The translations under genes were made by a program, and so were the position numbers. DNA of 64,000 nucleotides, taken from positions 4,320,001-4,384,000 of the forward strand of contig CH464491.1 of assembly GCA_000002445.1 (NCBI GenBank), written 5' to 3'. Each line of letters starts with the position of its first letter. Position 1 is the first letter of the stretch. The stretch comes from Trypanosoma brucei (taxonomy: Eukaryota). Shown piece after piece: positions 1 through 17,985 of this stretch. The notes beneath the pieces were generated by a model. The model was given only the letters and a program-made list of their open reading frames with translations, searched no databases and was not told where the DNA came from.

Positions 1-1659
1 GTACACAACACGCCCACATCGCGGATTTGCGTACTGCAGGGCTTGCATCAACTCCGACCGCAGGTAATGGAAAAGTTTGTTGACTCTCGGACAGACAGAC
101 ACAAACCGGTTCACCACAGCATTTCCCTCCCCCTCCTCCTCCCCCTCCATGGCACCACTAACACCTAATGCATAACGGGGCTTGCAACCGTCGGCGGTTG
201 TATCTGGGCAGCACAGTACATAATTGCAGTTGCCACGTAACCCCTCATGTACTTGACGCGGAGGGGCTCGTAGCAACACGTGACCCTCAACACCAGCGTG
301 ATAACCCGTGCTAAACTGCAATTCAACCGCGCCACTCCTCAAACAACCCTCTGCGCTGCTGTTGGCCGCGGGGACGTCTTCCTCATCTGCCCGAGCACTG
401 ACATGACACTTGCGGCTTGCCACATTGCTCGTACCCGAACCAACCACACAACCAACCTTACGGTTTGGAGACACTAATGAAATAACGACATATCCTACAC
501 TACTTTCCCCTCCTTCACTGGGATACGCCATGTAACTAGCGATGTCTTTACTGTAAAAACGCTCAGACATGCGGTACGATCGGCTAGACATGTCAAGAAT
601 AATCTGCGTATCAGCGACGGCACTAGTGACTCTCAACAGCAAAGGGATCAACACACCCAAAAGATCTGAATCAATAAGTGTATCAGCAGCCACCTGTCGC
701 TGCAACCAATACATGTGACCAATCGTCAAAGGTGAGCTCTTCATTACTTGGTGTACCCCACTCACCTCTGGGACGCATGATATCTCATCCTCCAGGAACG
801 ACGCCAAACTCGCCGCTTCACGAGAGGTGGTTTCCGCTCCCACCATGTCATCTTGCCGCTGCGCAACGACGCACTCATTAACCGAAACACCTGCAGGTTC
901 ATTAGGTGGTAGAGCGGAGGGAGAATTCGATGTGTTAAGAAGGGCCATTGGGTCGCAAGTGGATTGGCGGGGAAATAATTCTGCAGAAAAGAGCAGCGGA
1001 TGAGCGGGGTGTTGTGTGAACACGGCTCCGCGGCCCGAACTCTGAGCACTTTGTGCGTGCCGAAGCAACTGCCAGAGGGTCACAAAACGGACAAATGGAA
1101 AAGCGGAGTTCACAATGAGCAAAAGACCCGGTGGTCCCGTCATGATGTCAACAAGACGTTGGCCCTCTGCCCCCGTTACCAACCCCTGCCGCTCGTAATA
1201 TTCAGCGAAAAAACGGCGATGAGCATCTCGGGCTTCCTCCGCTCGTTCCTCATCCGACTCAATGTCCGCTTCCATAACATTCTCCACATCAACCTCCGTA
1301 TCCGACGTTAACGCCAGCTCCTCGAAAAAGTGACGGGCAAGTTGCATGGTGGAGACCGTCCGCTCCACCGCGTCGTCGGCGTCTTCCTGAGCTAAAAAAG
1401 CAGCCGCTTCATCATCATTAGCGAACGAGACGCCCTCCACGAAGCCACCGGCGTCACGATCAACAGGATTGGGAATTAAACGTACTGGACGGGCGTTGGT
1501 CCACTCACCGCGCAGTAACTCACGGCGGTCTTGCGGAGTCATCCGCCCGATATCGCCCCAACCATGACGTAGCGAGGCAGAGGGCATGTCAGTAATGGAA
1601 CGTGGGATTCGGCGACTTCCACCGCGTTGCAACAACATCAAATGAGTGGTACGGATCAT
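1..1659 (-). CDS. Hypothetical protein, N-terminal ~553 codons; the 3' end lies beyond the left window edge. Weak, unconfirmed resemblance to the N-terminal region of NOL1/NOP2/Sun RNA methyltransferases.
   Basis: Reverse-strand ATG at 1657-1659 opens a frame with no stop down to position 1 (hand-translated: MIRTTHLMLLQRGGSRRIPRS...RRFFAEYYERQGLV...LIPLLLRV...IILDM...). It is absent from the ORF track only because there is no in-window stop. GC-rich, coding-like composition contrasting with the flanks. The F-x-x-YY-x-x-Q and IPLLLxV...ILDM spacing recalls NSUN2/Trm4, but no AAPGSKT AdoMet motif follows ILDM. Confidence 0.55.
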   Translation of the reverse strand, partial: MIRTTHLMLLQRGGSRRIPRSITDMPSASLRHGWGDIGRMTPQDRRELLRGEWTNARPVRLIPNPVDRDAGGFVEGVSFANDDEAAAFLAQEDADDAVERTVSTMQLARHFFEELALTSDTEVDVENVMEADIESDEERAEEARDAHRRFFAEYYERQGLVTGAEGQRLVDIMTGPPGLLLIVNSAFPFVRFVTLWQLLRHAQSAQSSGRGAVFTQHPAHPLLFSAELFPRQSTCDPMALLNTSNSPSALPPNEPAGVSVNECVVAQRQDDMVGAETTSREAASLASFLEDEISCVPEVSGVHQVMKSSPLTIGHMYWLQRQVAADTLIDSDLLGVLIPLLLRVTSAVADTQIILDMSSRSYRMSERFYSKDIASYMAYPSEGGESSVGYVVISLVSPNRKVGCVVGSGTSNVASRKCHVSARADEEDVPAANSSAEGCLRSGAVELQFSTGYHAGVEGHVLLRAPPRQVHEGLRGNCNYVLCCPDTTADGCKPRYALGVSGAMEGEEEGEGNAVVNRFVSVCPRVNKLFHYLRSELMQALQYANPRCGRVVY

Positions 1660-1945
1660 TTTGTTACCTGCAGCAGCAGCAGCAGCAGTTATAGAACAAA
1701 AAAAAAGAAAAAGAGAAAGTACCTTCCCCCTCCCTCCCTCCCTTCCCCCTTGAAGAGAGGAAAAAAAAAAGAAAACTCCGGTACCTCTAAGCGTTTTGAA
1801 GCACGCTGCAGAGGGGGAGGAAACGAGGGGAATACTAACGAAACGTGTGTACCACCTCTGATATGGTTTTCAACTACTACTCAATGGACAGCGTAATGAA
1901 AGCAGAAAATTAAAGAAATTAAAGAAATAGCTGGACGAAAAACCT

Positions 1946-1980
1946 GTATGTGTATGTGTGTGTGTGTGTGTGTGTATGTG
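1946..1980. repeat. (TG)n microsatellite
   Basis: tgtatgtgtgtgtgtgtgtgtgtgtatgtg read directly. Confidence 0.9.
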
Positions 1981-2233
1981 AACAATTTCATCAAGTGAAT
2001 GAATTAAATAATAATTGAATGAATGGCAGAGAATAGATAAGAAATGACAATAGCACGTCACTAAGCGACTTAATGAACGGCTCTACCACCAAACACATGC
2101 GGTGACCTCATTCCAATAGGGTAGCACGACAAGATAACAAACGCATCAGCATAAGCAAATAGCGTGATGTAGCAACAGTGACTGTAAGGAGGACCGGGTA
2201 AAAAAAAAATAAAGAGAAAAGAGTCAAATTCCG

Positions 2234-2530
2234 TCACTTCGTGAGCTCCTGTATCACAACAAGCAAGAATTCCTCGTGGCATTTGATAATAATTTCGTTG
2301 TTGAGGGATCGTACTCGCACAGCATCAAGAGACTCATCCGCACTAAACAAAAGAGCAGCATCACGCGCGAGGTCGGCTGCCATGTTGCTGTACGCCACGG
2401 CACGGTTTCGATCCAAGTCTTGAAAACTATCACGGATTGGTTCACCGTTGCGGTTGCACACAACAGCGCCTGCAACACCTTTCGTATATGTAATGAGTTC
2501 CAGCACACTTTCCACGCGCTCACTCGTCAT
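2234..2530 (-). CDS. Dynein light chain, roadblock/LC7 type (98 aa)
   Basis: The C-terminal 98 aa of ORF 2234..2686 reads MTSERVESVLELITYTKGVAGAVVCNRNGEPIRDSFQ...RVRSLNNEIIIKCHEEFLLVVIQELTK, matching roadblock/LC7 proteins in length and order (KGVxGxxVxNxxGxPI ... RxRSxxNEI ... FLxVIQ). The longer ORF-track N-terminus runs through a (CA)n microsatellite, so the ATG at 2528-2530 is the likely start. Confidence 0.8.
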   Translation of the reverse strand: MTSERVESVLELITYTKGVAGAVVCNRNGEPIRDSFQDLDRNRAVAYSNMAADLARDAALLFSADESLDAVRVRSLNNEIIIKCHEEFLLVVIQELTK

Positions 2531-5500
2531 AATGACAGTTGACACGACTCTGCTGAATACAATTACGTATAAATATATGAATATGTGTTGGTATTCTAAT
2601 GCGTGGTGGCACACTAACAAACAAACAAACAAATAAACACAAACACACACACACACAACTTCAATTTTGTTCAGTTTCACCCACACAGTTCCCTCTGCAA
2701 TAGGGAAAAAGGTGCAATCGGGTCTTGTATTTTAATTCCCCTTTGATCCGTTAATACGGATTTCGCTGCTTCTTTTATTTTTTTAAAAAATTAAAGTTCT
2801 GTCTCTTCCTTTGATTCCCTCAAGTTGTTTTTTTTGTTTGTTTGTTTCCCCTCCTTGAATCTTACTTTATGTAGTACCTTTCCATGGAGTTAAATGAGGA
2901 GTTTTTTTTAAATAAAAAAAAAGGAGAAGCGAGGAGCAAACAAACAAACGAAATAAGATTGATTCAGCCAAACCACATGATGCAAAAGGCACGTAATGGG
3001 AAAATATTACAACAATAATAAGGTAAAAAAATATATAAATATATAAGAAAGGATATGAATAATAATAATAATATGCTCATGCCAGTGATAATGCTGCAGA
3101 CACTTTGAGCACAACATTCTACATTGCTGTTTCTTTTCCTTTTTTTTTGTGTATGTGGGGCGGGGGTTTCCTTGTATTTTCCTTCTCTTTGTTGTTGTTG
3201 TTGCTTTTATGTTCTCCTCTTATATTTATTTTTCCTTCCTTTTTAATTCATTTTGAAGGGAAATAAAGAGGAAGTGTACTTTTCTCTTTTCGTTTCTTTT
3301 TGTTTTTTTTGTACAAACTTTTGTACCCACCAAAAACTAAAAAAAAACAAGGATTAAATAATACCCACCGGCATGAAGAACGATGCGCTACGCTGCTTTC
3401 TGATGCTTGTGTGTTCGTGTTGGTATATATATATATAAGAAAGTGGGAGGTGGTGGGACACTTTTTTTTTTGTGTGTGTGTATATATTCATTTTATTATT
3501 TCATTTGTGTATTTTTTTTGAAATTTTTTTAAATTTAATTTTTATTTTTCTATTTCATATTATATTTTATATCTCCTACAAGTGTGAGCGGCGCCGCTTT
3601 TAAATTTCCCCACACTCACAAACATATATTCCCATCTTTTATTGCACCATCATTATTATTATAATATACCGCCATTAACACAAACACCACCACCCTTCAC
3701 ACACTAGCGAGAAAACAAACAAACAAATATAAATATATAAATGTTTCTTTGTTTTATATTTATATATTTATCTATATATGCCTGTGCAAATAATAATATT
3801 TTTTGTTAAAAAAGGAAAAGGGAAGAGGAAAAGTATTTGTCAACGAGCGTAGGGACGAAAAAAAAAAAAAGAGGTACACAGGAATAAAATTTAAAAGGAA
3901 GAAAAAAATTCTGCAAGAAAAAAAAGGGGAAAGTAATAAAAACAACAACAACAATAATAATAATAATAGTACTAAAAAGAAAGGGAAGCGGAAGAAGGAA
4001 GAAGGAAGAATTTCGCATGAAAATGCAGAAGTTCAACACGAAACAAACCAAAGCAACCACAAAAAAAAAAGCAAGCCAAAGAGCGAATACATCAGAAAAA
4101 GAAAAAAGAAAGAGGAGAATTTAAATAATAACAGACGCACGCGTACCATAACGGGAAAAGAAAAAAAAATGAGAAAGCAAAGACACACATAACGTTTGTT
4201 GCGACATTTTGTTTTTTTTTCTTTTTTCTTCTTTTTGAAATAATAAACACTGATAGCAGCGGATAAAAGAAAAAGGAGGAATCCTTTTTTTATTGTTTGT
4301 TTGTTTGTTTTCCTCCCTTTTTAATTTAATTATTGGGGAGACGGAGCGAACTCTGATAGCCCCTACAAACGGCGATGTTGCAGAAATAAAAACCTTTTTT
4401 GTTTTTTTCTTTTCATTTTCTTCTTTTAGGTTTCCACTATATCTTCTCAAACCGTATGCAAAATAATTCTTTTCTTGGTCTTCTTCATTTCAGCGACATT
4501 TCTTCCACTTTTTTTTTCTTTTTGGCTTTTCTTTTTTATTTTATTGTATTTTATCTTTTTTCTGATTTCGCCTTTTTGTGTGTTTGTTTTATTATTGCTG
4601 CAGCAGGTAAGAAGAAGAGTGAACTGAGTAGAGTAGACATCACGACACAAAACGATAATAACAATAAAAACAACAATAATAATAATAATAATAAAACACC
4701 GAAGGCAACAACGCAAAGAAATGGAGAAGGGCAAAAAAAAAAAGTAAACACTGCGCAAACATCCCACCCATTCAAGCATCCAAAAAAAAAAAAAAACATA
4801 AATTTATACTCGTTTATATAAATAAATATATAAATATATTCTCTTTTTTTAAAAAAAAAACATTCTAATGATACGTGCCATCAAAGCATTTTCGTATATT
4901 TCTTATGCACAATGATATCATGACTTCAACTTTCAGTTGCAGGTGAATGTCATCTCCCCCTCTTTTTCTATCCTTTTTTTTTCCTATTATTATTATTCTA
5001 TTTTTTCACTTCACACACATATATATATATACATATACATATATTTGTATTGCCGCGTTTCATTTCACTCCTTTTCTTTTCTCTGCATCCTTTTTGTTGT
5101 TGTTGTTGTTTTCTTTTTCAATTTGATTTCTTCGGTAATTGTGTTTAACCGAAAGTAATGTAGGAATGAAAGAACGGATGAAAAAGAAGCCGGCAGTAAA
5201 GAAGAGGAAACACTCCACCGGCGATAACATGAACAATAATAATAATAATAATTTATAGCTAATAATAATAATAATATAACTATCGACAGATCTCAGGGAG
5301 AAACGGAGATAAAAAAGAAAAAGCGCAAAGAAAAAAAAGAAAGAAGGACGGGGAAGATCGATTTAGACATTATTATTATTATTATTATTTTGCACGGCGG
5401 CACGGTATACACCTTCAAAATGCACACATGTAACTTGACTATTGAAACAAAAAACAAATCAAAACAAAACAAAAAAAAAAGAACGCAATTCAGAATTCCA

Positions 5501-6423
5501 CCTCCTTCACTCAGTCAGTGGCTTTTATTTGTTATTATTATTTTTTTTTGCAGTTCTGTTGCTTTTTGGTTTTTTTTCTCTCTTTCTCTCTCTTTTCTCC
5601 TTCCTTTTTTAAAAAACATTTGCTCCTTTTAAGTACTTTTTGTTTAATTGCATTTGCTACTGAAGCCAATAAATTTTTCTTTTTTTTAAAAAAAATACTA
5701 CATAAGAAATAAAATATTCAAAACAAAAAATAAAATAATACAAAATAAAGACGACTTCACTTTCTTTTTTTTTCCCCCTCCTCCTCCTTCTCTCCCTTGT
5801 TCCGTCTTGATTTCCACAACAACAACAACGCAAAACTTAAAAACAAAAAAAACACTATCGGGAACCGTTTTCTTTTCTTTTCTTTTCTTTTCTTTCTTTC
5901 TTTTCGTTGTTATTGTTGTTTGTTGTAGTTGTTCTCTCCCTTCTTTTTGAGTTTTCGATTTCCTATTAATATCTCCCTTTTCCTTTTTCATTTCTTTTTT
6001 TAAAAAAAAACAGAAAAGGGAAATTAAAACACCCTCTCGTGTTGTCATTATTATTATTATTATTATTATTATTGTTACTACTACTGTCCCCTTCATAACA
6101 TCACCTCCTTTAAAAATTAAAGACACAAAAATGTCACTCGGCTTTTCTTGTGTTTATTTATTTATTTATTTTTTTCTCTTCTTTTCCTCTGTTACTGTTA
6201 CTTTTAGAAAATAGGAAAAAATGAAGGGAAAATTTGTTGTTGTTGTTTTTCAAAAAAAAAAAAAAGATTCTTTTATACTTCAGCAATTTGAAATATCCAC
6301 GATAATTCGCTTCCGTGGTTCATATTGATTTGTCTTCACATAAATAATTATGTTTATTTTGTAAGCGCTTCAGCGTGTAGACACGAGAGATGTACTCCTC
6401 ATCACGCTCATTCTTCACTTTAC

Positions 6424-6428
<5 letters not shown>

Positions 6429-6471
<43 letters not shown>
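6429..6471. repeat. (AT)n microsatellite, ~21 units
   Basis: Uninterrupted atatat... run. Confidence 0.9.
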
Positions 6472-6472
<1 letters not shown>

Positions 6473-7303
6473 CTTTAAAATAATTTCAGTCAATTTTAAA
6501 CATTATTATTATCATTATTATTATTGTCATTATTATTATTACTGTTATGATTTATCACCACTCTGTAATAGTAGTAGTAGTGGTAGTAATAATAATAATG
6601 ATAATAATAATCATAATAATCATAATAATATTGATGTCATCGTCATTTGCCTTCAATTCCTGCACACTTATTCACTCACTTACTCATTTATTGTTTATAT
6701 CCTCCGGTACTCTCTGCTTCATCATATATATAAATACATAAATATTTAACTTTTTTTTCAAATATTTATATGTATTTGTGTGCATTTGCGTATGTGTGCA
6801 TTTGGGTGTTCGTGTTTACCGCCAGCTTTCAAATATAATATATATGCTACACATTTCCTTCCATTAATTCCTTTTGCTTTTGTCCCTTTTTTTTCTTTTT
6901 TTCCTTTCTTTTTTGCTGTCATTTTCTAAAGGGAAGAAATCAAAAAAAAATTGTTCGTCATTTCACCTGACCACTGATTTGATTTTGTATATTTTGATTT
7001 CATTATATATTTATATATGTTGTTTTCTTTGTTTTCTTTGTTTTTTTTTAGTAATGCATTTCCCTTGTATAAATATATATATATAAAGTAATTATAAGAA
7101 GAACAATCATAAACAAATAAATAAGCGATGAAAAGATATTATATTTCAAACCAACAGAAAAAGAAAAAAGGAAGAGGAAGAGGGAAATGAAAAGTGGAGA
7201 ACAGAAAGGTAAAGACAGAAGTAATAGAAAAATAGATATGAAACAAAGGGAAACAATAAACAACAAAAACAGTAGTGAATCGAAGAAAGAAAGTAAGTAA
7301 GAA

Positions 7304-7323
7304 AGGAAGGAAGGAAGGAAGGA
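7304..7323. repeat. (GGAA)n microsatellite
   Basis: aaggaaggaaggaaggaagg. Confidence 0.85.
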
Positions 7324-8242
7324 CAAGAAAAAAAAAAGAGGGGGAAAGGGAAAGCCAATCAATCAATAAATTAACAGTTAAAAATAATTATAAATAGTGA
7401 TTAAATAACAAAAAAAACAAAAAGAAACAGAAAATAAAAAGTTATATCATATCATATAATTTTATATAATAATGGTGGCGAAGACCCGGAGAAAAAAAAA
7501 CAAAAAAATTGAGAATGTGTCCAAAAAAGAAAAACCAAGAAAGGAAAGAAAAGGAAGGAATATCAAGTAAGGGAAACTTAAGTAAATAACACCTTCACTC
7601 ACCCACACCTTGAAGCACATCGAAGAGTCCAATAAACACATTAAATGCATAAATATAAATATAAAAATATATATACGTCTTTTGTTTTTTTTCTTCTTTC
7701 CTCTTTATTTGGTTGTTTGTTTATACGCTTACGTCCGTACACGCGCCTGTGTGAGGGTGTGTAATCTTTTTTTCTTTTTTTTAAAAAAATTATTCTTTCT
7801 TTCTCTTTCTCTTTCTCTCTCTCCCTTTCTTTTTCCCTACCCCCTCCTTTTAAACTTCTTTTTCTTTTTCTTTGTCTTATTGTTTTTGTTTTTGTCTTTG
7901 CTGTTGTTGTTGTTTTGTTGATTTTTTTTAAAAATTTTTTTCTTTATATTTATATTTACGTGTTTGTTGGACTCATATAAATATGTGTACATATATTTGG
8001 TGTGTGCTCGCATGTTTGCATGCATGCATGCGTGTGTTTGTGTTTGCGTGTAAATAACCCTTTTCCTTATTTTTCCTTCCTTCCTTTCTTTTTTTCTTTT
8101 TCTTTTCTATTCCAATTCTCATTTCTCTTAAAACTTCTCTGTTATTATTCTCGTCTTTTTTGTCTTTTGTCTTTTTCTTTTTTTTTTTAATTGGGCGCGT
8201 GTGTGTGTGGGGGTGGGGGGAAGTAAATCCAGGAAATTAAAA

Positions 8243-8245
<3 letters not shown>

Positions 8246-8282
<37 letters not shown>
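8246..8282. repeat. (TA)n microsatellite, ~18 units
   Basis: Uninterrupted tatata... run. Confidence 0.9.
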
Positions 8283-8283
<1 letters not shown>

Positions 8284-8370
8284 TTTTTTTTATTTTTCTT
8301 CTTTCGGTTTACTTTTTCGTCGTTTTTATTTCTTTTCGTTTCGTTTTCTCCTTACTTCCTCTGTTAACAA

Positions 8371-8470
8371 TAATAATGATGATAACAATAGTGACTATAA
8401 TAATAATAATAACAACAATATTAAAAATAATGGTAATAGTAATAACAATAATAATAATAATAGTAACAGT
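8371..8470. repeat. Compound (AAT)n/(AAC)n trinucleotide repeat block
   Basis: aataatgatgataacaatagtgactataataataataataacaacaat...aataataataatagtaacagtaat. Confidence 0.8.
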
Positions 8471-10204
8471 AATATAAGTCACACACACACAAAAAAAAAG
8501 ATTATAAAAGAAAAAAACAGAAAGGAGAGGAGAGGAGAAAAAAGGAAAGAAAAAGTCACACTACAAAAAAAAAAGAAAGGGGAAATAAAGAAGAGAGAGA
8601 GAGACAAAAATGAAAAAGGGTCGATCACCCGTGGGAGGAACGTGTAAATTAAATAATAATTGCCGTATCTTACAGATGTACATATGACACACACACAAAA
8701 AAAAAAAGAAAGTACAAAACAAAAATATATTTATATCAATTCTTTATTTATTTTAAATTTTTATTTTATTTCTACAAGAAAGGTCAACACAAGAGAATGG
8801 AGTAATCGTAACGAAAATGCTAAAATCTAAAAAAAAAATTCTCCCTCCCCTCCACACCATACCAAAACAACGAAGAAAAAAACTAAACTAAAACAACAAG
8901 AATAAAAATAAAAATAAAAAAAAAGATAAATTAAAAAAAATTTAAAAAAAACATAATAATAAAAAGACATGAAAAATCAGAAGGGAAGGAGGCAACACAC
9001 CAACAAGTAAATAAAATATGCCATAAATAAAATGTGATGTGGCCTCGGATTCCGCACGCTCACTAAATATAAATATTTATATATTTATTATTATTATATA
9101 TATATTTATATATTCTCTCATCAAACCCCTCCTCCACTTGCTTCTTTTTTTTTATTCTTTTTATTCCTTTCCTTTCTTCCTGCGTTATGGGATTACACCC
9201 GCATCTCTCACAAAAGAAAAAAGAAAAATAAAGAAAAAAAGAAACCCGACAACAACAACAAAAAAAACACACATTTCTCTGCCCGTGTTAATTCGGCACG
9301 CCTTTCACTCCCTCCAATTTCCACCCTCTTTGTTTCCTATAATATATTCATTTTATTTATTCATTTTATTTTATTTTTTGCCTATCCGTCCGTGTTCCTT
9401 TCTTTTCTTTTTTCTATTTTCTTATATTTCTTTTGTGTGGACTCCCGCACGCGAAGAGGGCACAAAATATTTCTCACTCGCCACAATCTCCAAACCCTCA
9501 AACTAAAGAGAAGGGAGGGGAAAAACAAAAAAAGTAGAGAAGTAAAACAAAAAGAAACCATCCCCCAAAGCGTCAGCTATCATATAAATAAATATATAAA
9601 TATATATAAATATATAAATATAAATAAATATATATTTATATAATTTCCTATTCCTTCTTTTAATCTTCTACAAAACTGAAAATGTACGTTTTTTTTTTTC
9701 CCTCCCCACACTTTTTTTGTTGTCTAATAATCATTTCGCTGCTTTACAGCTTCACTACATAATAAACAACAACAATATACTTCACAAACAACACAATAAC
9801 CAAAGAAAAGTAAATAGTAACAGACAAAACAAAACAAAACAAAAGCATCATTGGAACCCTTTCAAAGGTGGTCAGTTATTTTAATAAATTCATTCATTTA
9901 TTTATTTCATTTATTTTCCTTTCCTTTTTTTTTTTTACCCCTCATCTATTTCTTTTATTTTATTTTCTTCCTTTTTTTTTTATTCCCCCCTTTTTAATTC
10001 CTTTTTCATCCCTTGTTTAGTTTTTTGTCTTTCCTTTCCTTTTCCTCCTTCATTCCCTAATTGTTTCTGAAGTTGATCATGAACCCCATCAAAACAGGGA
10101 AATTGAGATGCACTTTTTTCTTCTTTTTTAAAAAACAAAACAAAACAAAAACAATAATTTAAAGAAAGAAGAAGAAAAACGTAAAGGAAGAAAAAAGAAG
10201 AAAA

Positions 10205-10221
10205 TGATAATGATGATTATA

Positions 10222-10252
<31 letters not shown>
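10205..10252. repeat. (ATA/ATG)n trinucleotide repeat
   Basis: gataatgatgattataataatgataatgataataataataataataat. Confidence 0.85.
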
Positions 10253-11353
10253 TATTCAAAAATGAAATAGGAGGAAAAGACACTAAACAAAAAAAAGTAA
10301 AGGAACTTGAAAAGTGAGATAAAACAATAAATAAAAGCAAAACGAAAAAAAAAACAAGAACAAAAGGACGAAAAAAAAATGGCAATGAAAGGGATTGGGA
10401 TGAAAAAGAAAAAAAGAAAAAACAAAAACAGAAACAAAACAATACAGTAAAAGATAATGATAATGATGAAGCGCTCGGCGTGTTAAAGTGCAACAATAAA
10501 AAAAAAACAAAAACGGTTCAGTGGACGGAAAAGTCGAAGGTTACTGGAAACAAAAAGCGTAGACGGGAAGGGGAAGAGAGAAGCAGAGTTAGAGGAAATA
10601 AATAAAACAAAACAAAAAAGTTTTTATATTCTTCTTTTATTATTATTATTATCTCCTTTACAATAATACTAATAATAAATAAAATAAATGAATAAAATGA
10701 TAACAACGGAGAAGAACGTAAAAGAGGAGCAACAAAGCGGAAGCAAACGAACAGACACACTGATGGAAAAATATGATGAAATATTTTTTGAAAAAAAAAA
10801 GGAAAAGAAAGGTAAAGTAAGATTGGGGGACTAAGCACACACACAAACAAACATGAATAAACATATAAAACTAAATATATAACCAAATATATAAATATTT
10901 ATGTGCTCACTCAATATCCCCCTTTATTTTGTCTTTTTCAGTATCATTATCATTATTTTATTTTATTTATTTATTTATTCTCCCCCTTCTTTTCCTTTTT
11001 TTTATATTTCCCATCTTATTTTTCTTTCTTCCATTTTGTTCGCTACATCATTTCATTTCACTCTTTACGTTATCTCTCTCCATCTCTTTCTCTCTCCTTC
11101 TCTCTCGTTGTTCTTCCTGCATCACAACTATTTTCAGTTTCTTTTTTTTTTGCTTTTTTTTGATTTTGTTGCTGTTGTTATTTTCTCTCCCATCTCCCTT
11201 TCTTTTTTTTTCTTTTAAAAAAAAAGCAAAAAAAAGTTTTTTTTTCCCCTTCCTCCAAATGATCCGATCAACGCACAAACGCACAAACACACACTTCGCT
11301 GTTGAATCATTCCCTCCCTCCCCAAAGAAAAAAAAACAAAAAACAAAAAGAAG

Positions 11354-11418
11354 CTCACTCACTCACTCACTCACTCACACGCACGCACACACACATATAT
11401 ATATATATATATATACAC
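11354..11418. repeat. Compound microsatellite (CTCA)6-(GCAC)2-(AC)n-(AT)n
   Basis: ctcactcactcactcactcactcacacgcacgcacacacacatatatatatatatatatat. Confidence 0.9.
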
Positions 11419-11771
11419 CATTCACATATTCAAACAAAAAACGAATGAAAACAAAACAAGAAAAAAAAGGTAAATAAAATTAAATTAAAGTAGGAAAAAA
11501 AACAAAAAAAATTGACGCCACAACAATTTGTTGAAGCAAACGAAGAGGGGAAAAATATGAAAAATGGACAAAGGAAAAGGGCAGCAGCAGCAGCAGCACC
11601 CGCTGCTGGTGCCACACACAAATTCACTCATTTGTTCAATCACTCATATCATTAAATACGTATATTATATATATCTACATATATGACAGAACACATTTAC
11701 GCAATAGTAATAGTAATAATAATAATAATTATTATTATAGTAATAATATATAGATATATTTACTTATGGAA

Positions 11772-11797
11772 ATATATATATATATATATATATATAT
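11772..11797. repeat. (AT)n microsatellite
   Basis: atatatatatatatatatatatatat. Confidence 0.85.
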
Positions 11798-14700
11798 CAA
11801 ACGCAGCAAGAAAGCGGATGGTATTTAGTATTGGAGCCATACCGCCTCATTCCTCAGGCTTCTCACCTCCTTTATTTTTTTCTTCTCTTCTCACTTGTGC
11901 CTCGTTTTTTCTTTCTTCTTTTCTTTTCTCTCAAGTTTGTTTTCTGCTGCTTACACAAAAATGGATGTAATGCGTATAAGCAACCGCACAACAAACCAAA
12001 CAAACAAACAAAAGAGTTAGAGGAAAGGTTACAAGTGATGATAATAATAATAATAACAATAAGGGAAGAAGAGAGACCCAAAAACAAAATAAAACAAAAC
12101 ATTGAGCAAATGGAAATAATAATAATAATATTATATAAATTATATATATATATATATATATACAATATAAATAAATATATATACATATATAAATATATAT
12201 AATTATAACAATAAAACAAGACGGAAAAACGCAGTGAAACATGAAATGTAGTTACAGAAAGAAAACCAAACAAGCAAACATATAAAAAAAAAGAAAAAAG
12301 AAAGAGAGGGGGAAAAGGAAATCAGAAGACACATCAACACTCCGCCAAAGTACGAAGAATACGGAGCATACAGATAATATATAAATATATATAAATATAC
12401 ATATGTATATAACATAATAGAAAGAACATAAAAACGAAAGAAAAAAAAACGACGGTCAATCACCAATCAAAACGTCAAATTGATCCCGAACGGAACAAAG
12501 TTGTGGGGAACGCGAAAACAAAAAAAAACACCCACAAAAAAGACGTGGCGGTGGTGGTGGTGGTGGCGGAAACTCAAAAACGAAAAAAAAAGGAAAAGAG
12601 TGAACCGAGCCGCAGGAGACAAATATCAGGACAAGAAAAAAAAAACACCAACCCACACATATGCCTAAAAGCGTCAAGGGAAGAAGTGGCCATCAGAACT
12701 GATAACAATAAAAAAAAAACAATTGATGAAAAGAAAAGTAAATGACAGATTTGACGACGACAACAACAATAACAAGTAAACAATAATAATGATCACCATT
12801 ATCATCATTTATATCATCACAATGCCACAACAACAAAAAAAAACAAAATCACGGAAACTCATCCCTTCTCTCTCTCTCCCCCTCCCACTCGCCTTTTGTT
12901 TCTTTTTGAACTTTATTGTCGCTGTTTCATTTATTTCTTCCTCTTGATTCGTATTTATTTATATAAAAGAAAAACCATTGCTTCCTCGGACTCCCACACG
13001 AAACAGCCTTTAAAACAAAACAAAAGAGCGCTAACAGAGAAAGTCAGAAGGCAAAGAAAGAAAGAAAAAACAAGTCAGGCACACAAATATGTAATTAAGT
13101 ATAAATTTATAAATATAAATCTCCACCACAACGCAAAAGATAAATATCAAGATTATATATATAAATAATATAGTTTTTACATATAATTTTAAATTAATTA
13201 TGGCGTAATGAGGGGACCTGAAATATCCAAAAACATTGAGAACGAAATCCACAGGAAAGTATACTGAAACCCAGTAGAGAAAGGGGAAAAGAAAGGAGGT
13301 AAAAAAAAAAAACACACACACTTACAACCAGAGTGTCAGAACCTTAAATATAATTAAATATGGTTTAATAGGGGGCAAATATAAGTAAATATAAGTAAAT
13401 ACATATAATACATATGCACCATATGTATAGATGTGTCATTATTAGCTAAAAGGCGGGAAATACACAATCACAAACACAATCACAATCACAATCACACACG
13501 CAATATAATAACAATAATGATGGTAATGGAAGAATTCATACGTAAATGTATGAAGGGACCATAACATGAAAAGAAAGAGAAAAGAAGGAGGAAGAAAAAC
13601 AAACAAATAAAAACGCAAAACATAATCAAAAAAAGGAAGGAGGTATTTTTCTTTTTCATCTTCGTGTCTTTACTGAATTTTTTTTAGATTGCTTTGATTC
13701 TTTAACCTTGTTTTTTTTACCTTATTCTTTGTACTCAGGAGGTGGGGACGGGGGGGGGATATCTCCCGCGAAGCAAATTGAATGATGATAATGATAATGA
13801 TGATAATGATATGGCAAAGCAATTAGTGCCGGGGTTGCGTGGGGCAAGTTTTAGAGGGATATGAGGAGAAGGAGAAAATAAAGAGGGGAAAGGGGGGAAA
13901 TGAAAACAGCAAACACAAACACAGGAGCCTATTTATGTATTCATTTTATTTGCTTATCCATTCATTCATTCATATTCAATCCTTCATTCGGTCGCAAAAG
14001 AGAGGTGCACGCATGCGCTAATGTATTCAACATGTTGGTGCAAAATATATCAAGCGAAAGAAAAATAGTACAAAAAATGAGGGAGGAACTAAAGGAAAAC
14101 AGAAATGGGCTGGCACGCGAGTTTTTCGAATAGGGCAAAGTGTAAAGGGAAAGGGAAAGGAACAGACAGGTACGCGCGCGCCCATGCATTTAAATCACGC
14201 GCACAGGAGCCCTCCACCCGCCTCATATTATTATTTTTTTCTTTTTTTTAATCACCCCATCCACCCACACCCCAAAGACGAGGGGAAATTTCCTTGTATT
14301 TTTTTCTTTTTTCCTTTCCTTCTTCTTTTTTTTTTCTCTTATCTCCTCTCCTCTTTTCCTTCTTTCACCCTCTCCTCTCCCCTCCCCTGTCACGCCCTGT
14401 AATTGTCAATGCCATTATTATCACATTGTCATTAGCTCATTCAGTTATTTTATTTCACTATTGGTTAGGTTTGATATTTTGTTATTCTTTTTTTAAATTT
14501 TTTTTTGCTTTCCCTCTTCCCCTCCCCCCTCTCCCCTCTCCGTTTCTTTCTCTTTCTTTACTTTACTCTCCTTTCCTTCTTTTTGAAACTCCTTTTTTTT
14601 AAATATAATTTTTTCTTTCTTTTTCTTTGCTTTGTTTTTGTTTTTTCAGAGGGAAAGTTGGATCAAACTTTTTTTCTCTGTGACTGGCGTTGTTTGTGTT

Positions 14701-16180
14701 GTTCTATTATCATTATCATTATTATAATCATTCATTTTCATTTTTTCCCCTTCCTCTTTTTTTTGTCTTTTTTCTTCTTTTTTTTCCTTTTTCTTCTGTT
14801 ACCTTTTTATTATTTTATTTTTTTTGTTATTTTTTATTTTATTTTATTTTATTTTTTGAGCGTTACTGTCCTTTTTTCTTTGTTGTTGCTGGGTTCCAAA
14901 AATTCGGCGAGTACTCCAACAACAATAACAATAAATAACAACACGGAGGGAAGTGAGAAGGAAGCCACACACATATATGTATAAACATAAGCACAAACGC
15001 ACGCAAACACACAAAAACGAACAAAAAAAAAGCAAAGGAAGGAAGGAAAGAGACACTAAAATGTCTGAACTTCCACAAGTGACAAAACAAATACGGGAAC
15101 GGAAAAACGAAAGAAAAAAAAAGGAAAGAGAAAACAAAAACAAAATAAAATAATAAAATAGTAAAAGATACGCACAATGAAAAAAAAAAAGTACAACATA
15201 CATACTTTTATAACTCCCTCCACAAATGCACATGACCACTAGCCACGACCACGTGCACACAAAAGAAAAAAAAAGGAAAAGGGAAAAGGAACAAGGAAGA
15301 ACCAGAGGGAAAAGGGAAAAAAAAAGAACAACAACACACTTTTCCAATGTGTTTCTCATAATATATATATATATATTCATATTTATATTTATTTATTTAT
15401 ACCTACAAATATATAAATATAGGTGTGTCTGTGCATTTGTGTCTATGTTCATATATGTGTTCATTCATTCATTTCCCCCTTGTTTTTCCTTCCTTTCCTT
15501 TCCTTTCCTTTCTTCTCCCTTTTTTTCTTTTTCCTCCTCCCCCTCTTCTGTTAGTCTATTTCAAATATTAGGTTTTTGGGTTTGTCCTTCCCCTATTTCT
15601 TCCCTCGCTTCCACAGCTCGTTGGAAACATGCGGTCTCACCATTTTGTATTGGTCATCAGTATTTTACTTCGTATGGTGTGTCGCAGCCTCTTTCGTTTT
15701 GATCATTTCACTTATATCGAGTCTTTCTTTTTGATGTGTGTATGTGTGCGTGTGTGCATGAGTTCGATTCTTCTCTCCCATTCGACGGGAATGTATGGGC
15801 TCAGTCATCTTTTCTTTTCCTTTTTTTTCGTGATTACTTTTTCCTTTCGTCTTCATGCTTCAATTTATGACCCATACATACACATAAACAAACAAACACA
15901 CACACACACACACACGGACACATGATTTGCTCCGCCTAAAGCGCTACATCGACATCACTTTACTTCTTCTCTTCGCTGTTTCCACGCTTTGCTCTCTCTC
16001 TCTTTTTCTCTCTCGATCTCTCTTTTTCAATCCTACGACTGCTCCAAATACTTCAACCGTTTTCTTCGCTAACCGCTAGTTTCTTTTCTTCTGATCGTTC
16101 CTTTTCACGTCATGCATTTCCCCCCCCCCCAACACACACACACATTCTTCCACTTACCATCACCTGCTTTCAGTTGACTT

Positions 16181-17809
16181 TTACACATATGTAAGCAACA
16201 GCGGCGAGATGACGTAGTCGGAGGCGGAACTGCGTTGGTTAACAGGCTGCCGCGACACCTCAGGTCCCGGGAGCTGTGAAGCCTCCGGGTGCTGCTGCCG
16301 CTGCGTAAAGTATGGAGAAGAAGGGCTTAATGGCATCGCCGGCATCTCCGCCGGAGAGTTGTTCGTATATGAAGTCGGTCGCGAGGTGTAGACGGGCTCA
16401 AACGAATACCCCTGAGACGCATTCAACACACGAGATTGTTGTTGTTGTTGTAAGTGGGGCGGATGATGGTGGTGGTGGTGGTGATGATGATGCGTTTGCT
16501 GTTGTTGTTGTTGCTGCTGAAATGAGTTGTGGTGATGTTTGTAAGACGGGCCCGGTGGCACTACGAGTGGACCTCTACCTTGTTGCATTGGGCCACAACT
16601 ACCGAAGGAAACAGGTCCCGCTGCATGTTGTTGGTGCAGCGGCAGGTTGTTGGTCATATAACCACTGGAACCGCCATGCGGAGATCCCGCCTGTTGATGC
16701 TGTTGCCGATAGCCACCGCGGCTCTGGTACGGGTGCCCGCCCATGTGTTGGGAATGCCCACTTAGGCCGCCGTGGGGATGGGGGTGGGAACGATGCATCT
16801 GCTGAAGCTGTTGTGGGTGAAGGTGGCCGTGGCCTCCACCGCCTCCGTAACCACCCCTGTAGGCCGAGTTGTATTGCTGCCGCTGCGACCGCATCGAGTG
16901 GCCTTGAGACGGCATTTGGGGGGAACGCGTGTTCAAATGAACACGGTGAATAAAGTTACACAAACTTCCACGCCCACACCTTTCGCGTTCGTAATGCTTG
17001 CAAAACCGGAGATATTTCGTGGAGTCACTGTGTTGAGCCTCCTCGCTGCCCTTCGTACGGTAGACTTGCTCTGAAGGCACTTGCACCGGGTTCGCTGCTC
17101 CGCCTCGCAAAGAGTGACCCGCGTTGATGTAAAAAACTGAGCCTGGTTCATGTCGCTCGTATGGTGCTTCTTCCAATAAGGCAACAGGTGTGGACCAGTG
17201 AACCAGATTGACAGTCACAGGCAAGTCACCGTCACGAGGTTCTGCAAAGGTGTGCCGACTGTGGATGAAGTCACAACGGTCCCCGTGGGCACACGAGGCA
17301 TTGGTGGAAAAGGATTTGCAAAGGTATAGTGCGTAACTCGGCTCCTTTGTACCTCTGTTTCGTGACAAATAGTTTTTCGACCCAGAAGTAGTCTCGATGA
17401 ATTCGGACGGGATACACAGCGCTTTGTTCTTGTCAGCACTCAGCACGTGGAAGCGGCGGTCGTGCTGACCCGACTCATTGGCATCGATATTATCCCCATC
17501 AGTACCCTTGTCAGGGGCCACTAATTCTGTTGGCGCCTCGAGTGGTTCCTTCTGCGGTTTGCTGCTACTGCACCTACTGTTGCTCCCGCTCCCAGGAAGT
17601 ACCTTGGTGAAACAACTTTCAGGTCGATCCGTGTTAGGCAGCACAGGGGAAAGAATGTCTAACCCCGCCTGCTGCTCCTGTGGCGAGCCCAAAGAGTCCT
17701 TCGCTTCACTCATTCTCTGCTCGCGTGTTCCCTCTTTCTTTTGCACTCTTGCTGTCACTCTTTTGATTCCACGGCTTCGAACACACACACACTCTCTCTC
17801 TACCGTCAC
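16181..17809 (-). CDS. CCCH-type zinc-finger RNA-binding protein with poly-Q and poly-H tracts (start probably the internal ATG at 17713)
   Basis: Two C-x7/8-C-x5-C-x3-H fingers (CKSFSTNASCAHGDRCDFIH; CKHYERERCGRGSLCNFIH). Q/H/G/Y-rich low-complexity C-terminal half (QQQQQQQQTHHHHHHHHHHPPHLQQQQQ). The first 32 codons of the track ORF run through a (CA)n/(CT)n tract, so MSEAKDSLG at 17713 is the more plausible start. Confidence 0.8.
   Translation of the reverse strand: MTVERECVCVRSRGIKRVTARVQKKEGTREQRMSEAKDSLGSPQEQQAGLDILSPVLPNTDRPESCFTKVLPGSGSNSRCSSSKPQKEPLEAPTELVAPDKGTDGDNIDANESGQHDRRFHVLSADKNKALCIPSEFIETTSGSKNYLSRNRGTKEPSYALYLCKSFSTNASCAHGDRCDFIHSRHTFAEPRDGDLPVTVNLVHWSTPVALLEEAPYERHEPGSVFYINAGHSLRGGAANPVQVPSEQVYRTKGSEEAQHSDSTKYLRFCKHYERERCGRGSLCNFIHRVHLNTRSPQMPSQGHSMRSQRQQYNSAYRGGYGGGGGHGHLHPQQLQQMHRSHPHPHGGLSGHSQHMGGHPYQSRGGYRQQHQQAGSPHGGSSGYMTNNLPLHQQHAAGPVSFGSCGPMQQGRGPLVVPPGPSYKHHHNSFQQQQQQQQTHHHHHHHHHHPPHLQQQQQSRVLNASQGYSFEPVYTSRPTSYTNNSPAEMPAMPLSPSSPYFTQRQQHPEASQLPGPEVSRQPVNQRSSASDYVISPLLLTYV
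16438..16518 (-). repeat. Coding trinucleotide repeats, mRNA-sense (CAA/CAG)n-(CAC/CAT)n-(CAG/CAA)n, encoding Q8-T-H10-PP-H-L-Q5
   Basis: Plus strand gttgttgttgttgta...ggtggtggtggtggtgatgatgatg...gttgttgttgttgctgctg lying inside the CCCH protein CDS. Confidence 0.9.
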
Positions 17810-17975
17810 TTCCTTCTTTCCTTAGTACTCTTTTCGCCTACGTCGCCTCCAATAGGTTTTTCTTCCTTTTCCTTGATAGTGATACTGGCAGTAGTTATAA
17901 CAATGAGTAAGGAGAGAATTGCAGTCAAAAAGAAAAAAAAGTAAGAAAAACAATTCATCACACAAGAACCCTGAT

Positions 17976-17985
17976 CCCCCCCCCC
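17976..17985 (-). repeat. G10 homopolymer (mRNA sense) upstream of the CCCH gene
   Basis: cccccccccc on plus strand. Confidence 0.9.

What the first reader, a model, noticed from the sequence alone, without database searches (positions are those of the whole stretch)
2690..16180. A 13.5 kb microsatellite/homopolymer stretch without genes, inside an otherwise compact one-directional gene array
Every other spacer in this window is 0.13 to 2 kb. Here about 13.5 kb contains no credible ORF and is nearly pure simple sequence: A/T homopolymers, (TA)n, (CA)n, (AAT)n, (CAAA)n, (GGAA)n, (CTCA)n. The genes on both sides (roadblock at 2530, CCCH protein at 16181) are on the same strand, so this is not a conventional strand-switch region. 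Candidate explanations are an unusually long 3' UTR of the upstream CCCH RNA-binding-protein gene, a Pol II termination/re-initiation or chromatin-boundary region, a centromere-like AT-rich domain, a decayed gene cluster, or an assembly problem in repeat-rich sequence. I cannot choose between them from sequence alone.
Basis: partly seen in the sequence, partly recalled or inferred. Interest (0 to 1): 0.65.

Follow-up and report, generated by a model that had tools for sequence, protein, structure and literature searches.

The report
Giant ZC3H46 3'-UTR spacer, Trypanosoma brucei
The 13.6 kb gene-free, AT-rich, low-complexity stretch is real; about two thirds of it is the already annotated, roughly 9 kb 3'-untranslated region of the Trypanosoma brucei RNA-binding-protein gene ZC3H46, an extreme case of a known trypanosome feature and not a new kind of element.

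Summary
Between the roadblock gene (Tb927.11.16540, CDS 2234-2533, minus strand) and the CCCH gene (ZC3H46, Tb927.11.16550, CDS 16181-17713, minus strand) lies a 13,647-nt spacer. Its GC is 0.31, against 0.39-0.46 in the other spacers. DUST masks 52% of it, against 9% of the other spacers. It has no ORF with coding-like codon usage, no tRNA and no Rfam hit.

It is not an assembly artefact: T. equiperdum IVM-t1 has a collinear 13,737-nt spacer, and two T. equiperdum OVI contigs cover it. It is not a decayed gene cluster: the two genes are direct neighbours in T. cruzi, T. rangeli, T. grayi, T. theileri (2.2-3.1 kb apart) and T. vivax (5.4 kb). It is not a centromere: there is no 147-bp satellite, no retroelement and no strand switch.

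Published supplementary data (Trenaman et al. 2024) give the ZC3H46 3'-UTR as Tb927_11_v5.1:4386491-4395447. That is 8,957 nt and maps to window 7224-16180. Its 3' end sits in a strong polypyrimidine tract followed by an AG, as expected for coupled polyadenylation and trans-splicing.

The remaining ~4.3 kb (about 2950-7223) is unassigned. It is probably a processed non-coding by-product. Verdict: an extreme, lineage-expanded member of the known class of very long, low-complexity 3'-UTRs of trypanosome RNA-binding-protein mRNAs. Low to moderate interest.

The parts
2234..2533 (-). Roadblock/LC7 gene Tb927.11.16540, the downstream neighbour in the transcription unit
   Evidence: Pfam Robl_LC7, E=6e-8. 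100% identical to the Trypanozoon 98-aa roadblock protein. Gene ID and product name come from supplementary tables of PMC5568443.
2534..2950 (-). Predicted roadblock 5'-UTR and splice-acceptor region. A polypyrimidine tract lies at about 2911-2948, with the first AG about 40 nt downstream in the sense direction.
   Evidence: Read directly from the sense strand. The longest polypyrimidine tract within 400 nt of the ATG is 20 nt, 380 nt upstream. The processing site is inferred, not measured.
2951..7223 (-). Distal ~4.3 kb of the spacer, not covered by the published ZC3H46 3'-UTR coordinates. Inferred to give spliced-leader-capped, polyadenylated non-coding RNA(s), or longer ZC3H46 isoforms.
   Evidence: No coding ORF and no RNA family. 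The composition is the same low-complexity type. AT skew is reversed relative to other spacers. An AG acceptor follows the polypyrimidine tract at about 7066. No transcript data were available here.
7224..16180 (-). Annotated 3'-UTR of ZC3H46 (8,957 nt; Tb927_11_v5.1:4386491-4395447)
   Evidence: Coordinates are in supplementary file 3 of PMC11405848. That paper revised 3'-UTR annotations manually from nanopore direct-RNA, spliced-leader and poly(A) reads. The offset of 4,379,267 between window and chromosome was cross-checked on the Tb927.11.16580 feature, which lands on that gene's CDS end at window 24274. The two feature ends are 8,094 nt apart in both coordinate systems.
7150..7354 (-). 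Pyrimidine-rich block (sense strand) containing the annotated ZC3H46 poly(A) site at about 7224, followed by an AG at about 7066
   Evidence: Sense-strand polypyrimidine tracts of 56 nt (7299-7354) and 35 nt (7153-7187). Sequence read. This fits the coupling of poly(A) site and downstream trans-splice site (median distance 142 nt; PMC2936537).
16181..17713 (-). ZC3H46 (Tb927.11.16550) CDS, 510 aa, a CCCH zinc-finger RNA-binding protein
   Evidence: Pfam zf-CCCH, E=2e-6. Identical to TREU927 XP_829712/EAN80600. The CDS length of 1,533 nt matches Tb927.11.16550 in PMC5568443 supplementary tables.
10079..11262 (-). Reporter-assay fragment 'peak_4450_G' (ganciclovir selection), assigned to the ZC3H46 3'-UTR
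   Evidence: PMC11405848 supplementary file 3. Indexed read counts are 0-1 and p is about 0.32, so there is no significant regulatory call.
12879..14662 (-). Reporter-assay fragment 'peak_4451_G' (ganciclovir selection), assigned to the ZC3H46 3'-UTR
   Evidence: PMC11405848 supplementary file 3. Indexed read counts are 0-2 and p is about 0.10, which is not significant.
6429..6470 (.). Longest (TA)n tract, 21 units. It is one of six (AU)n tracts of at least 8 units; the others are at 8246-8281, 11395-11414, 11772-11797, 12142-12161 and 15361-15376.
   Evidence: Deleting an (AU)n tract from a fragment of the RBP10 3'-UTR sharply lowered reporter expression in bloodstream forms (PMC8982893).

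Best explanation
The window is Trypanosoma brucei chromosome 11, with coordinates consistent with TREU927 at about 4,379,268-4,443,267. All its genes lie in one minus-strand Pol II polycistronic unit.

The gene-free stretch is the spacer between ZC3H46 and the roadblock gene. Its proximal 8,957 nt (window 7224-16180) are the 3'-UTR of the ZC3H46 mRNA. This is an extreme example of the very long, low-complexity 3'-UTRs typical of trypanosome RNA-binding-protein mRNAs.

Polyadenylation at about 7224 is set by the strong polypyrimidine tract and AG just downstream, as usual in trypanosomes. The remaining ~4.3 kb is most likely released as spliced-leader-capped non-coding RNA, or included in rarer longer isoforms. 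It ends at the roadblock splice acceptor near 2900.

A long, low-complexity spacer at this position is ancestral in Trypanosoma: it is the longest local spacer in every species examined. In the T. brucei lineage it grew about five-fold, probably through replication slippage and expansion of A/T-rich simple sequence under weak constraint.

Functionally, the UTR probably offers many redundant binding sites for regulators: A-rich purine tracts, U-rich pyrimidine tracts and (AU)n. These would tune ZC3H46 mRNA stability and translation through the life cycle.

Shown here or in cited data: gene identities, reality of the spacer, synteny, composition, absence of genes, and the published 3'-UTR coordinates. 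Inferred: the fate of the distal 4.3 kb, the expansion mechanism, and the regulatory role.
For: Identity of the locus:
- The ZC3H46 protein is identical to the TREU927 protein.
- CDS lengths of 1,533 nt and 1,326 nt and the gene order 16540/16550/16560 match published tables. The roadblock CDS is listed there as 297 nt, against 300 nt here.

3'-UTR:
- Coordinates 4386491-4395447 are assigned to Tb927.11.16550 in PMC11405848 supplementary data. That paper's annotation used nanopore RNA, spliced-leader and poly(A) reads.
- The annotated end sits in a 200-nt pyrimidine-rich block followed by an AG. This fits the known coupling of poly(A) and splice sites.

Reality of the spacer:
- T. equiperdum IVM-t1 is collinear over 21.5 kb in a single alignment, and its spacer is 13,737 nt.
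- Two T. equiperdum OVI contigs cover 12.16 kb and 1.41 kb of it.

Synteny and expansion:
- ZC3H46 and roadblock are adjacent in every species. The spacer is 2.2-2.6 kb in T. cruzi, 2.95 kb in T. rangeli, 2.96 kb in T. grayi, 3.06 kb in T. theileri and 5.40 kb in T. vivax. It is always the longest local spacer, and its DUST coverage is about 2-3 times that of the whole locus.
- Neighbouring spacers are not expanded in T. brucei: 2,111 vs 2,131 nt and 493 vs 528 nt in T. cruzi.

Weak constraint and slippage:
- Substitutions are about 2-3 times, and indel events 3-9 times, those of other non-coding DNA in comparisons with OVI and T. b. gambiense.
- No sequence blocks are conserved with T. vivax or T. 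cruzi.

Same transcription unit: GC skew has the same sign as the other spacers and CDS in all three thirds of the spacer.

The class is known:
- The longest trypanosome 3'-UTRs belong to RNA-binding-protein and kinase mRNAs. RBP10 has 7.3 kb and ZC3H22 more than 5 kb, with many low-complexity tracts and a functional (AU)n (PMC8982893).
- ZC3H28 preferentially binds long mRNAs with low-complexity 3'-UTRs.
- DRBD18 depletion leads to use of alternative polyadenylation sites in the long RBP10 3'-UTR, which carries several internal polypyrimidine tracts.
- Adenine-rich poly-purine tracts raise translation efficiency, and dense pyrimidine tracts lower it.
Against: - I could not inspect RNA reads myself. 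The 3'-UTR coordinates come from one manually curated annotation, seen only as rows of a supplementary table whose header I could not read. That the interval is a 3'-UTR was inferred from its abutting the CDS and from the paper's methods.
- The spacer holds 49 sense-strand polypyrimidine tracts of at least 18 nt, 12 of them at least 30 nt. Many shorter isoforms and internal processing products are therefore likely, and the 9 kb form may not be the dominant one.
- Polypyrimidine tracts are as frequent on the antisense strand (51). AT skew is weak, and reversed in the distal third. The sequence therefore does not look shaped by sense-strand selection.
- Faster evolution than other spacers argues against dense functional content.
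- The two reporter-assay peaks in the UTR have negligible indexed reads, so no regulatory activity has been shown.
- The distal 4.3 kb has no assignment at all.
Confidence: 0.78

Rival explanations
1. Internal boundary of the transcription unit. Pol II terminates in the AT-rich stretch and re-initiates upstream of the roadblock gene, so the spacer, or its distal 4.3 kb, acts as a chromatin or termination/initiation domain and not as UTR.
For: The length and the low GC (0.31 against 0.39-0.46) are exceptional. The distal third has reversed AT skew. The published 3'-UTR coordinates stop at about 7224, leaving 4.3 kb unexplained. Sense-strand (UG)n tracts lie near both ends.
Against: The window has no tRNA or other RNA gene. 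GC skew keeps the same sign throughout. The same two genes are neighbours on one strand, with an enlarged spacer, in six Trypanosoma lineages. The annotated poly(A) site has the ordinary polypyrimidine tract plus AG architecture of intra-unit processing. No chromatin data could be consulted.
Confidence: 0.1
2. The spacer hosts one or more independent, functional long non-coding RNA genes (like 'grumpy' near RBP7), especially in the distal 4.3 kb. This does not exclude the 3'-UTR reading for the proximal part.
For: Many strong sense-strand polypyrimidine tracts are followed by an AG. An acceptor-like site lies directly after the annotated poly(A) site. About 1,500 lncRNAs are annotated in T. 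brucei, and some arise from within long 3'-UTRs.
Against: Gene IDs 16540 and 16550 do not occur in the one supplementary file held for the nanopore lncRNA paper. There is no Rfam or structural signal. Nothing is conserved with other species, and the sequence evolves faster than other non-coding DNA. Processing by-products need not have a function.
Confidence: 0.15
3. Assembly artefact, or a strain-specific expansion in repeat-rich sequence.
For: Short-read and Sanger assemblies break here. One OVI contig ends 1.4 kb past the stop codon, and the other carries six short N runs. T. b. gambiense DAL972 has a 100-N gap at the equivalent of window ~8180, with unrelated sequence beyond it.
Against: IVM-t1 spans the whole spacer without Ns, at 13,737 nt against 13,647 nt, and is collinear. 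The two OVI contigs together account for about 13.57 kb. DAL972 is collinear for the 5.65 kb it does contain.
Confidence: 0.02
4. Decayed gene cluster or degenerate mobile elements.
For: The size would fit 4-6 former genes.
Against: The two genes are direct neighbours in T. cruzi, T. rangeli, T. grayi, T. theileri and T. vivax. No ORF has coding-like codon usage or a Pfam domain above the cut-off. No 250-nt bin exceeds GC 0.46. All repeat families found are simple sequence.
Confidence: 0.02
5. Centromere-like AT-rich domain.
For: It is AT-rich (69%) and repeat-rich.
Against: T. brucei centromeres lie between directional gene clusters, carry INGI/DIRE elements, and hold arrays of ~147-bp (or ~30-bp) repeats; the chromosome 11 type is 147 bp and 61% AT (PMC1868937). 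Here both flanks are on one strand, there are no retroelement remnants, and the largest tandem period is 48-49 nt with 2 copies.
Confidence: 0.01

Closest known systems
RBP10 (Tb927.8.2780) 7.3 kb 3'-UTR and ZC3H22 >5 kb 3'-UTR of T. brucei (PMC8982893, PMC9380746)
   Same: It lies downstream of an RNA-binding-protein gene inside a polycistronic unit. It is many kilobases long and full of low-complexity tracts: (AU)n, poly(A), poly(U) and internal polypyrimidine tracts. The gene it follows is developmentally regulated.
   Different: It is longer: 8,957 nt annotated, inside a 13,647-nt spacer. The sense-strand UA(U)6 motif is not enriched (3 copies against about 5 expected, and 14 on the antisense strand), whereas ZC3H22 has 9 copies. 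No reporter dissection or Northern data exist for it. A further 4.3 kb lies beyond the annotated poly(A) site.
Long, low-complexity 3'-UTR mRNAs bound by ZC3H28 and DRBD18 (PMC10090614, PMC9380746)
   Same: The sequence type matches what these proteins prefer: long 3'-UTRs with low-complexity runs and many U-rich tracts.
   Different: Binding of the ZC3H46 mRNA by either protein was not checked, because the supplementary tables were not available.
T. brucei centromeric AT-rich repeat domains (PMC1868937)
   Same: It is AT-rich, repetitive and several kilobases long.
   Different: It has no higher-order tandem array, no INGI/DIRE elements and no strand switch. It lies inside a transcribed unit.

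Membership tests
Very long low-complexity 3'-UTRs of T. brucei RNA-binding-protein mRNAs | Lies directly downstream of an RNA-binding-protein CDS, on the same strand, within a polycistronic unit | tested here: met
   The ZC3H46 CDS is 16181-17713 (-). All genes in the window are on the minus strand.
Very long low-complexity 3'-UTRs of T. brucei RNA-binding-protein mRNAs | RNA-based annotation shows the mRNA extending several kilobases past the stop codon | tested here: met
   Published coordinates 4386491-4395447 (8,957 nt) are assigned to Tb927.11.16550. The annotation method is RNA-based. This holds for window 7224-16180 only, and I did not see the reads.
Very long low-complexity 3'-UTRs of T. 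brucei RNA-binding-protein mRNAs | Numerous low-complexity tracts: (AU)n, A and U runs, internal polypyrimidine tracts | tested here: met
   DUST masks 52%. There are six (AU)n tracts of at least 8 units, 51 U runs and 40 A runs of at least 8 nt, and 49 sense-strand polypyrimidine tracts of at least 18 nt.
Very long low-complexity 3'-UTRs of T. brucei RNA-binding-protein mRNAs | Demonstrated regulatory activity of UTR fragments | tested here: inconclusive
   Two ganciclovir-selected reporter-assay peaks map to the UTR, but their indexed read counts are only 0-2 and p is 0.10-0.32.
T. brucei centromere | Located between directional gene clusters (strand switch) | tested here: not met
   Both flanking genes, and all other genes in the window, are on the minus strand.
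T. brucei centromere | Array of ~147-bp (or ~30-bp) AT-rich tandem repeats spanning kilobases | tested here: not met
   The largest TRF periods are 48-49 nt (2 copies) and 30 nt (3.5 copies). There is no array. Definition taken from PMC1868937.
T. brucei centromere | INGI/DIRE retroelement present | tested here: not met
   No coding-like ORF and no Pfam hit above the cut-off. No 250-nt bin exceeds GC 0.46. Repeat families are simple sequence only.
Internal Pol II unit boundary (termination/re-initiation site) | Histone-variant, acetylation or base J marks and a break in nascent transcription | not testable with these tools
   No chromatin or nascent-RNA data are accessible here.
Internal Pol II unit boundary (termination/re-initiation site) | Associated Pol III genes such as tRNAs (frequent at such sites, not obligatory; from my own knowledge) | tested here: not met
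   ARAGORN finds 0 tRNAs, and Rfam finds no hit at gathering threshold in the whole window.
Decayed gene cluster | Orthologous loci carry genes between the flanking genes | tested here: not met
   CCCH and roadblock are adjacent in T. cruzi, T. rangeli, T. grayi, T. theileri and T. vivax.
Assembly artefact | Independent assemblies lack or collapse the stretch | tested here: not met
   The IVM-t1 spacer is 13,737 nt and collinear. OVI contigs cover about 13.57 kb.

The most novel reading that the evidence does not exclude
The five-fold, T. brucei-lineage-specific growth of this spacer may be more than neutral slippage. One reading is that the full 13 kb serves as a platform or sponge for proteins that bind low-complexity RNA (ZC3H28, DRBD18, poly(A)-binding proteins, or ZC3H46 itself). 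Another is that the unassigned distal 4.3 kb is an independent spliced-leader-capped lncRNA, or an internal chromatin or transcription boundary that controls the genes downstream. In either case this locus would be one of the longest non-coding functional units in the trypanosome core genome.
Probability: 0.1. Interest if true: 0.5.

Novelty: already known. Interest (0 to 1): 0.22.

Why it matters
Trypanosomes control genes almost entirely after transcription, and the longest 3'-UTRs belong to the regulators themselves. At 8,957 nt, the annotated ZC3H46 3'-UTR exceeds the 7.3 kb RBP10 UTR that the literature treats as extreme. The mean 3'-UTR is 622 nt and the median 388 nt.

The spacer grew about five-fold in the T. 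brucei lineage while neighbouring spacers did not. It is therefore a convenient natural case for asking whether such giant low-complexity UTRs are functional, for example as fail-safe redundancy or protein platforms, or mostly tolerated slippage products.

There is also a practical point. Short-read and Sanger assemblies break here: OVI is split into two contigs, and T. b. gambiense DAL972 is gapped and joined to unrelated sequence. It is not a new kind of element.

Tried and rejected
RNA genes:
- Rfam at E<=1 over 1-20000, and at gathering threshold over the whole window, gave only a sub-threshold SCARNA7 match outside the spacer.
- ARAGORN found no tRNA.

Conservation:
- Sensitive blastn of the spacer against the T. 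vivax and T. cruzi spacers gave only 24-32-nt simple-sequence matches.

Repeats:
- The repeat search found only simple-sequence families, with no segmental duplication or complex inverted repeat.

Coding potential:
- Pfam scans of the ten longest ORFs gave only sub-threshold, low-complexity noise.
- Looking up the 178-aa sense ORF, to fish for transcript-derived contigs, found nothing on record.

Literature searches for ZC3H46 mRNA or UTR length:
- No text supplements are held for PMC9380746, PMC10090614 or PMC9200285.
- There were no hits in the supplements of PMC4845500, PMC4210626 or PMC10048164, and guessed old-style gene IDs gave no hit in PMC2936537.
- Only PMC11405848 gave the UTR coordinates.

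Other:
- No T. congolense orthologue was returned by either protein search.
- I first guessed the CCCH gene might be ZC3H28 and rejected that: ZC3H28 is a 114 kDa protein on chromosome 9.
- The RBP10-target idea is not supported: sense UA(U)6 occurs 3 times, against about 5 expected.

Full report
**Where the window comes from.**
All long ORFs in the window are on the minus strand. Coding GC is about 0.52, with a trough of about 0.26-0.36 between 3 and 16 kb.

The CCCH ORF (16181-17713, minus strand, 510 aa) has a Pfam zf-CCCH domain. It is identical to the T. brucei TREU927 protein XP_829712/EAN80600. Supplementary tables of PMC5568443 list three neighbouring genes:
- Tb927.11.16550 = ZC3H46, CDS 1,533 nt, exactly the length found here.
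- Tb927.11.16560, CDS 1,326 nt, matching 19825-21150.
- Tb927.11.16540 = a Roadblock/LC7 protein.

So the finding is the ZC3H46-to-roadblock spacer on chromosome 11 of T. brucei. Transcription runs from high to low window coordinates.

**Checking the observation.**
The spacer is 2534-16180, 13,647 nt. The other 15 spacers in the window are 132-2,111 nt. GC is 0.306, against 0.386-0.464 in the other spacers.

Low-complexity measures, big spacer / other spacers / CDS:
- DUST-masked: 51.7% / 8.8% / 0.5%.
- TRF score >=30: 30.9% / 6.1% / 0.8%.

Perfect microsatellites of at least 12 nt cover 15.5% of the spacer, against 0.5% in shuffles. The spacer alternates between purine-rich and pyrimidine-rich blocks of about 0.3-1 kb. 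All repeat families found are simple sequence.

None of the 24 ATG-ORFs of at least 60 aa has coding-like codon usage, and none of the ten longest has a Pfam domain above the cut-off. There are no tRNAs or Rfam families anywhere in the window.

'Nearly pure simple sequence' is somewhat overstated, and the true left boundary is 2534.

**Is it an assembly artefact?**
No.
- The chromosome-level T. equiperdum IVM-t1 assembly aligns to window 27719-6218 as a single collinear alignment, and to 12493-1 from the roadblock side. From the record coordinates, its spacer is 13,737 nt.
- The T. equiperdum OVI assembly is split. One contig ends 1.41 kb past the ZC3H46 stop codon. The other extends 12.16 kb upstream of the roadblock gene and carries six short N runs. 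Together they account for about 13.57 kb.
- T. b. gambiense DAL972 is collinear for 5.65 kb, then has a 100-N gap with unrelated genes beyond it. That is a defect of that assembly, not evidence that the spacer is absent.

**Did genes decay here?**
No. The CCCH and roadblock orthologues are direct neighbours on one strand in every species examined:

| Species | Spacer |
|---|---|
| T. cruzi | 2.2-2.6 kb |
| T. rangeli | 2.95 kb |
| T. grayi | 2.96 kb |
| T. theileri | 3.06 kb |
| T. vivax | 5.40 kb |
| T. brucei (this window) | 13.65 kb |

In every species this is the longest local spacer. [quoted passage not shown] T. theileri stands out at GC 0.27 and DUST 62%.

Neighbouring spacers are not enlarged in T. 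brucei. The transporter-to-CCCH spacer is 2,111 nt against 2,131 nt in T. cruzi. The helicase-to-transporter spacer is 493 nt against 528 nt. The expansion is therefore specific to this spacer and to the African trypanosome and T. brucei branch.

No sequence block is conserved between species. Within Trypanozoon, the spacer accumulates about 2-3 times the substitutions and 3-9 times the indel events of other non-coding DNA. That is as expected for slippage-prone, weakly constrained sequence.

**Is it a centromere?**
No. T. brucei centromeres lie between directional gene clusters, contain INGI/DIRE elements, and carry kilobase arrays of ~147-bp or ~30-bp AT-rich repeats. The chromosome 11 type is 147 bp (PMC1868937). 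Here there is no strand switch and no retroelement remnant, and no tandem period above 49 nt, with at most 3.7 copies for periods of 20 nt or more.

**What it is.**
Supplementary data of Trenaman et al. 2024 (PMC11405848) assign two reporter-assay fragments to a feature of Tb927.11.16550 spanning Tb927_11_v5.1:4386491-4395447 on the minus strand. [quoted passage not shown] The authors had manually revised 4,703 3'-UTR annotations using nanopore direct-RNA reads and reads containing the spliced leader or poly(A).

Setting the upper end of this feature next to the ZC3H46 stop codon gives an offset of 4,379,267 between window and chromosome. With that offset, the Tb927.11.16580 feature (4403441-4403541) lands exactly at that gene's CDS end, window 24274. 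So these intervals are 3'-UTRs, and the window is collinear with the TREU927 reference.

The ZC3H46 3'-UTR is thus 8,957 nt and covers window 7224-16180. For comparison:
- The mean 3'-UTR is 622 nt and the median 388 nt.
- An earlier survey found a maximum of about 6 kb.
- The RBP10 3'-UTR, treated in the literature as extreme, is 7.3 kb.

The annotated 3' end lies inside a ~200-nt pyrimidine-rich block (sense strand, window 7354 to 7150), followed by an AG near 7066. This is the usual trypanosome arrangement, in which a poly(A) site is set by the next trans-splice signal.

**What remains unassigned.**
The distal ~4.3 kb (about 2950-7223) has no assignment. A polypyrimidine tract at 2911-2948 and a following AG probably serve the roadblock mRNA.

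By the coupling rule, the distal segment should yield spliced-leader-capped, polyadenylated non-coding RNA(s). Alternatively it could be part of rarer, longer ZC3H46 isoforms. This is inference.

The spacer contains 49 sense-strand polypyrimidine tracts of at least 18 nt, so several isoforms and by-products are likely, as described for RBP10 after DRBD18 depletion.

A transcription boundary in this segment cannot be excluded without chromatin data. Nothing supports it, however: there are no RNA genes, and GC skew keeps the same sign across all thirds of the spacer.

**How it probably works.**
The literature states that the longest trypanosome 3'-UTRs belong to RNA-binding-protein and kinase mRNAs and contain many low-complexity tracts. 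It also reports that an (AU)n tract and poly(A) tracts alter expression, and proposes redundancy as a fail-safe (PMC8982893). ZC3H28 preferentially binds long mRNAs with low-complexity 3'-UTRs. A-rich purine tracts raise translation efficiency, and dense pyrimidine tracts lower it.

ZC3H46 itself is developmentally regulated: its protein differs between bloodstream and procyclic forms and between early and late procyclic forms, and its mRNA rises after heat shock. It is described as a repressor of gene expression.

The ZC3H46 UTR carries six (AU)n tracts of at least 8 units, 51 U runs and 40 A runs of at least 8 nt. It is not enriched in the RBP10 motif UA(U)6: 3 sense copies against about 5 expected.

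A regulatory role is plausible but not demonstrated. The two reporter-assay peaks have almost no indexed reads. The fast evolution and strand symmetry suggest that much of the length is tolerated slippage product.

**Verdict.**
The stretch is real and striking, but it is explained. It is an extreme, lineage-expanded instance of a known class, and its main part is already annotated as the ZC3H46 3'-UTR. Interest is low to moderate. The open points are the fate of the distal 4.3 kb and whether the five-fold expansion has any function.

Noticed in passing
L009 1-4315 (T. b. gambiense DAL972 chr 11, FN554974.1), equivalent to window ~8180: The DAL972 scaffold has a 100-N gap in the middle of this spacer. 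On the far side are two genes (675 aa coiled-coil; 452 aa, truncated at the gap) that match nothing in the 64 kb window. ZC3H46 is not within 10 kb. This looks like a gap or misjoin in that reference assembly.
   Followed up: partly
L003 3075-10000 (T. vivax): Between the RRM gene and the CCCH gene, T. vivax has only a 164-aa called ORF. T. brucei, T. cruzi, T. grayi, T. theileri and T. rangeli have three genes there (a ~575-aa protein, a DEAD helicase and a nucleotide-sugar transporter). This is either a rearrangement upstream of ZC3H46 in T. vivax or missed gene calls.
   Followed up: no
window 2534-7000: The distal third of the spacer has reversed AT skew (plus strand T>A, -0.054). The rest of the spacer (+0.08 to +0.10) and the other spacers (+0.18) have the opposite sign, while GC skew keeps its sign. 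I have no explanation.
   Followed up: no
window 2534-16180, sense versus antisense strand: The RBP10 recognition motif UA(U)6 occurs 3 times on the transcribed sense strand and 14 times on the antisense strand (about 5 expected). Long polypyrimidine tracts are equally frequent on both strands (49 against 51).
   Followed up: partly
window 16121-16131: A run of 11-12 C on the plus strand, which is a G run in the mRNA sense, lies about 50-60 nt downstream of the ZC3H46 stop codon. A similar run lies upstream of the gene at 17971-17980.
   Followed up: no
window 16440-16520 (ZC3H46 CDS): The protein has long His and Gln runs (H10, Q7, Q5). It differs by one residue in length between strains (510 aa in TREU927 and OVI, 509 aa in IVM-t1), so there is repeat-length polymorphism inside the CDS as well.
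   Followed up: no
L008 11402-14456 (T. theileri): The orthologous 3.06 kb spacer in T. theileri is even more AT-rich and low-complexity (GC 0.27, DUST 62%) than the T. brucei one. The roadblock gene there was not called by the annotation but is found by tblastn at 14457-14729.
   Followed up: partly
window 6502-6626: An (ATT)n / (AAT)n inverted repeat with 42-nt arms, 90% complementary, 41 nt apart. It could form a hairpin or cruciform.
   Followed up: no
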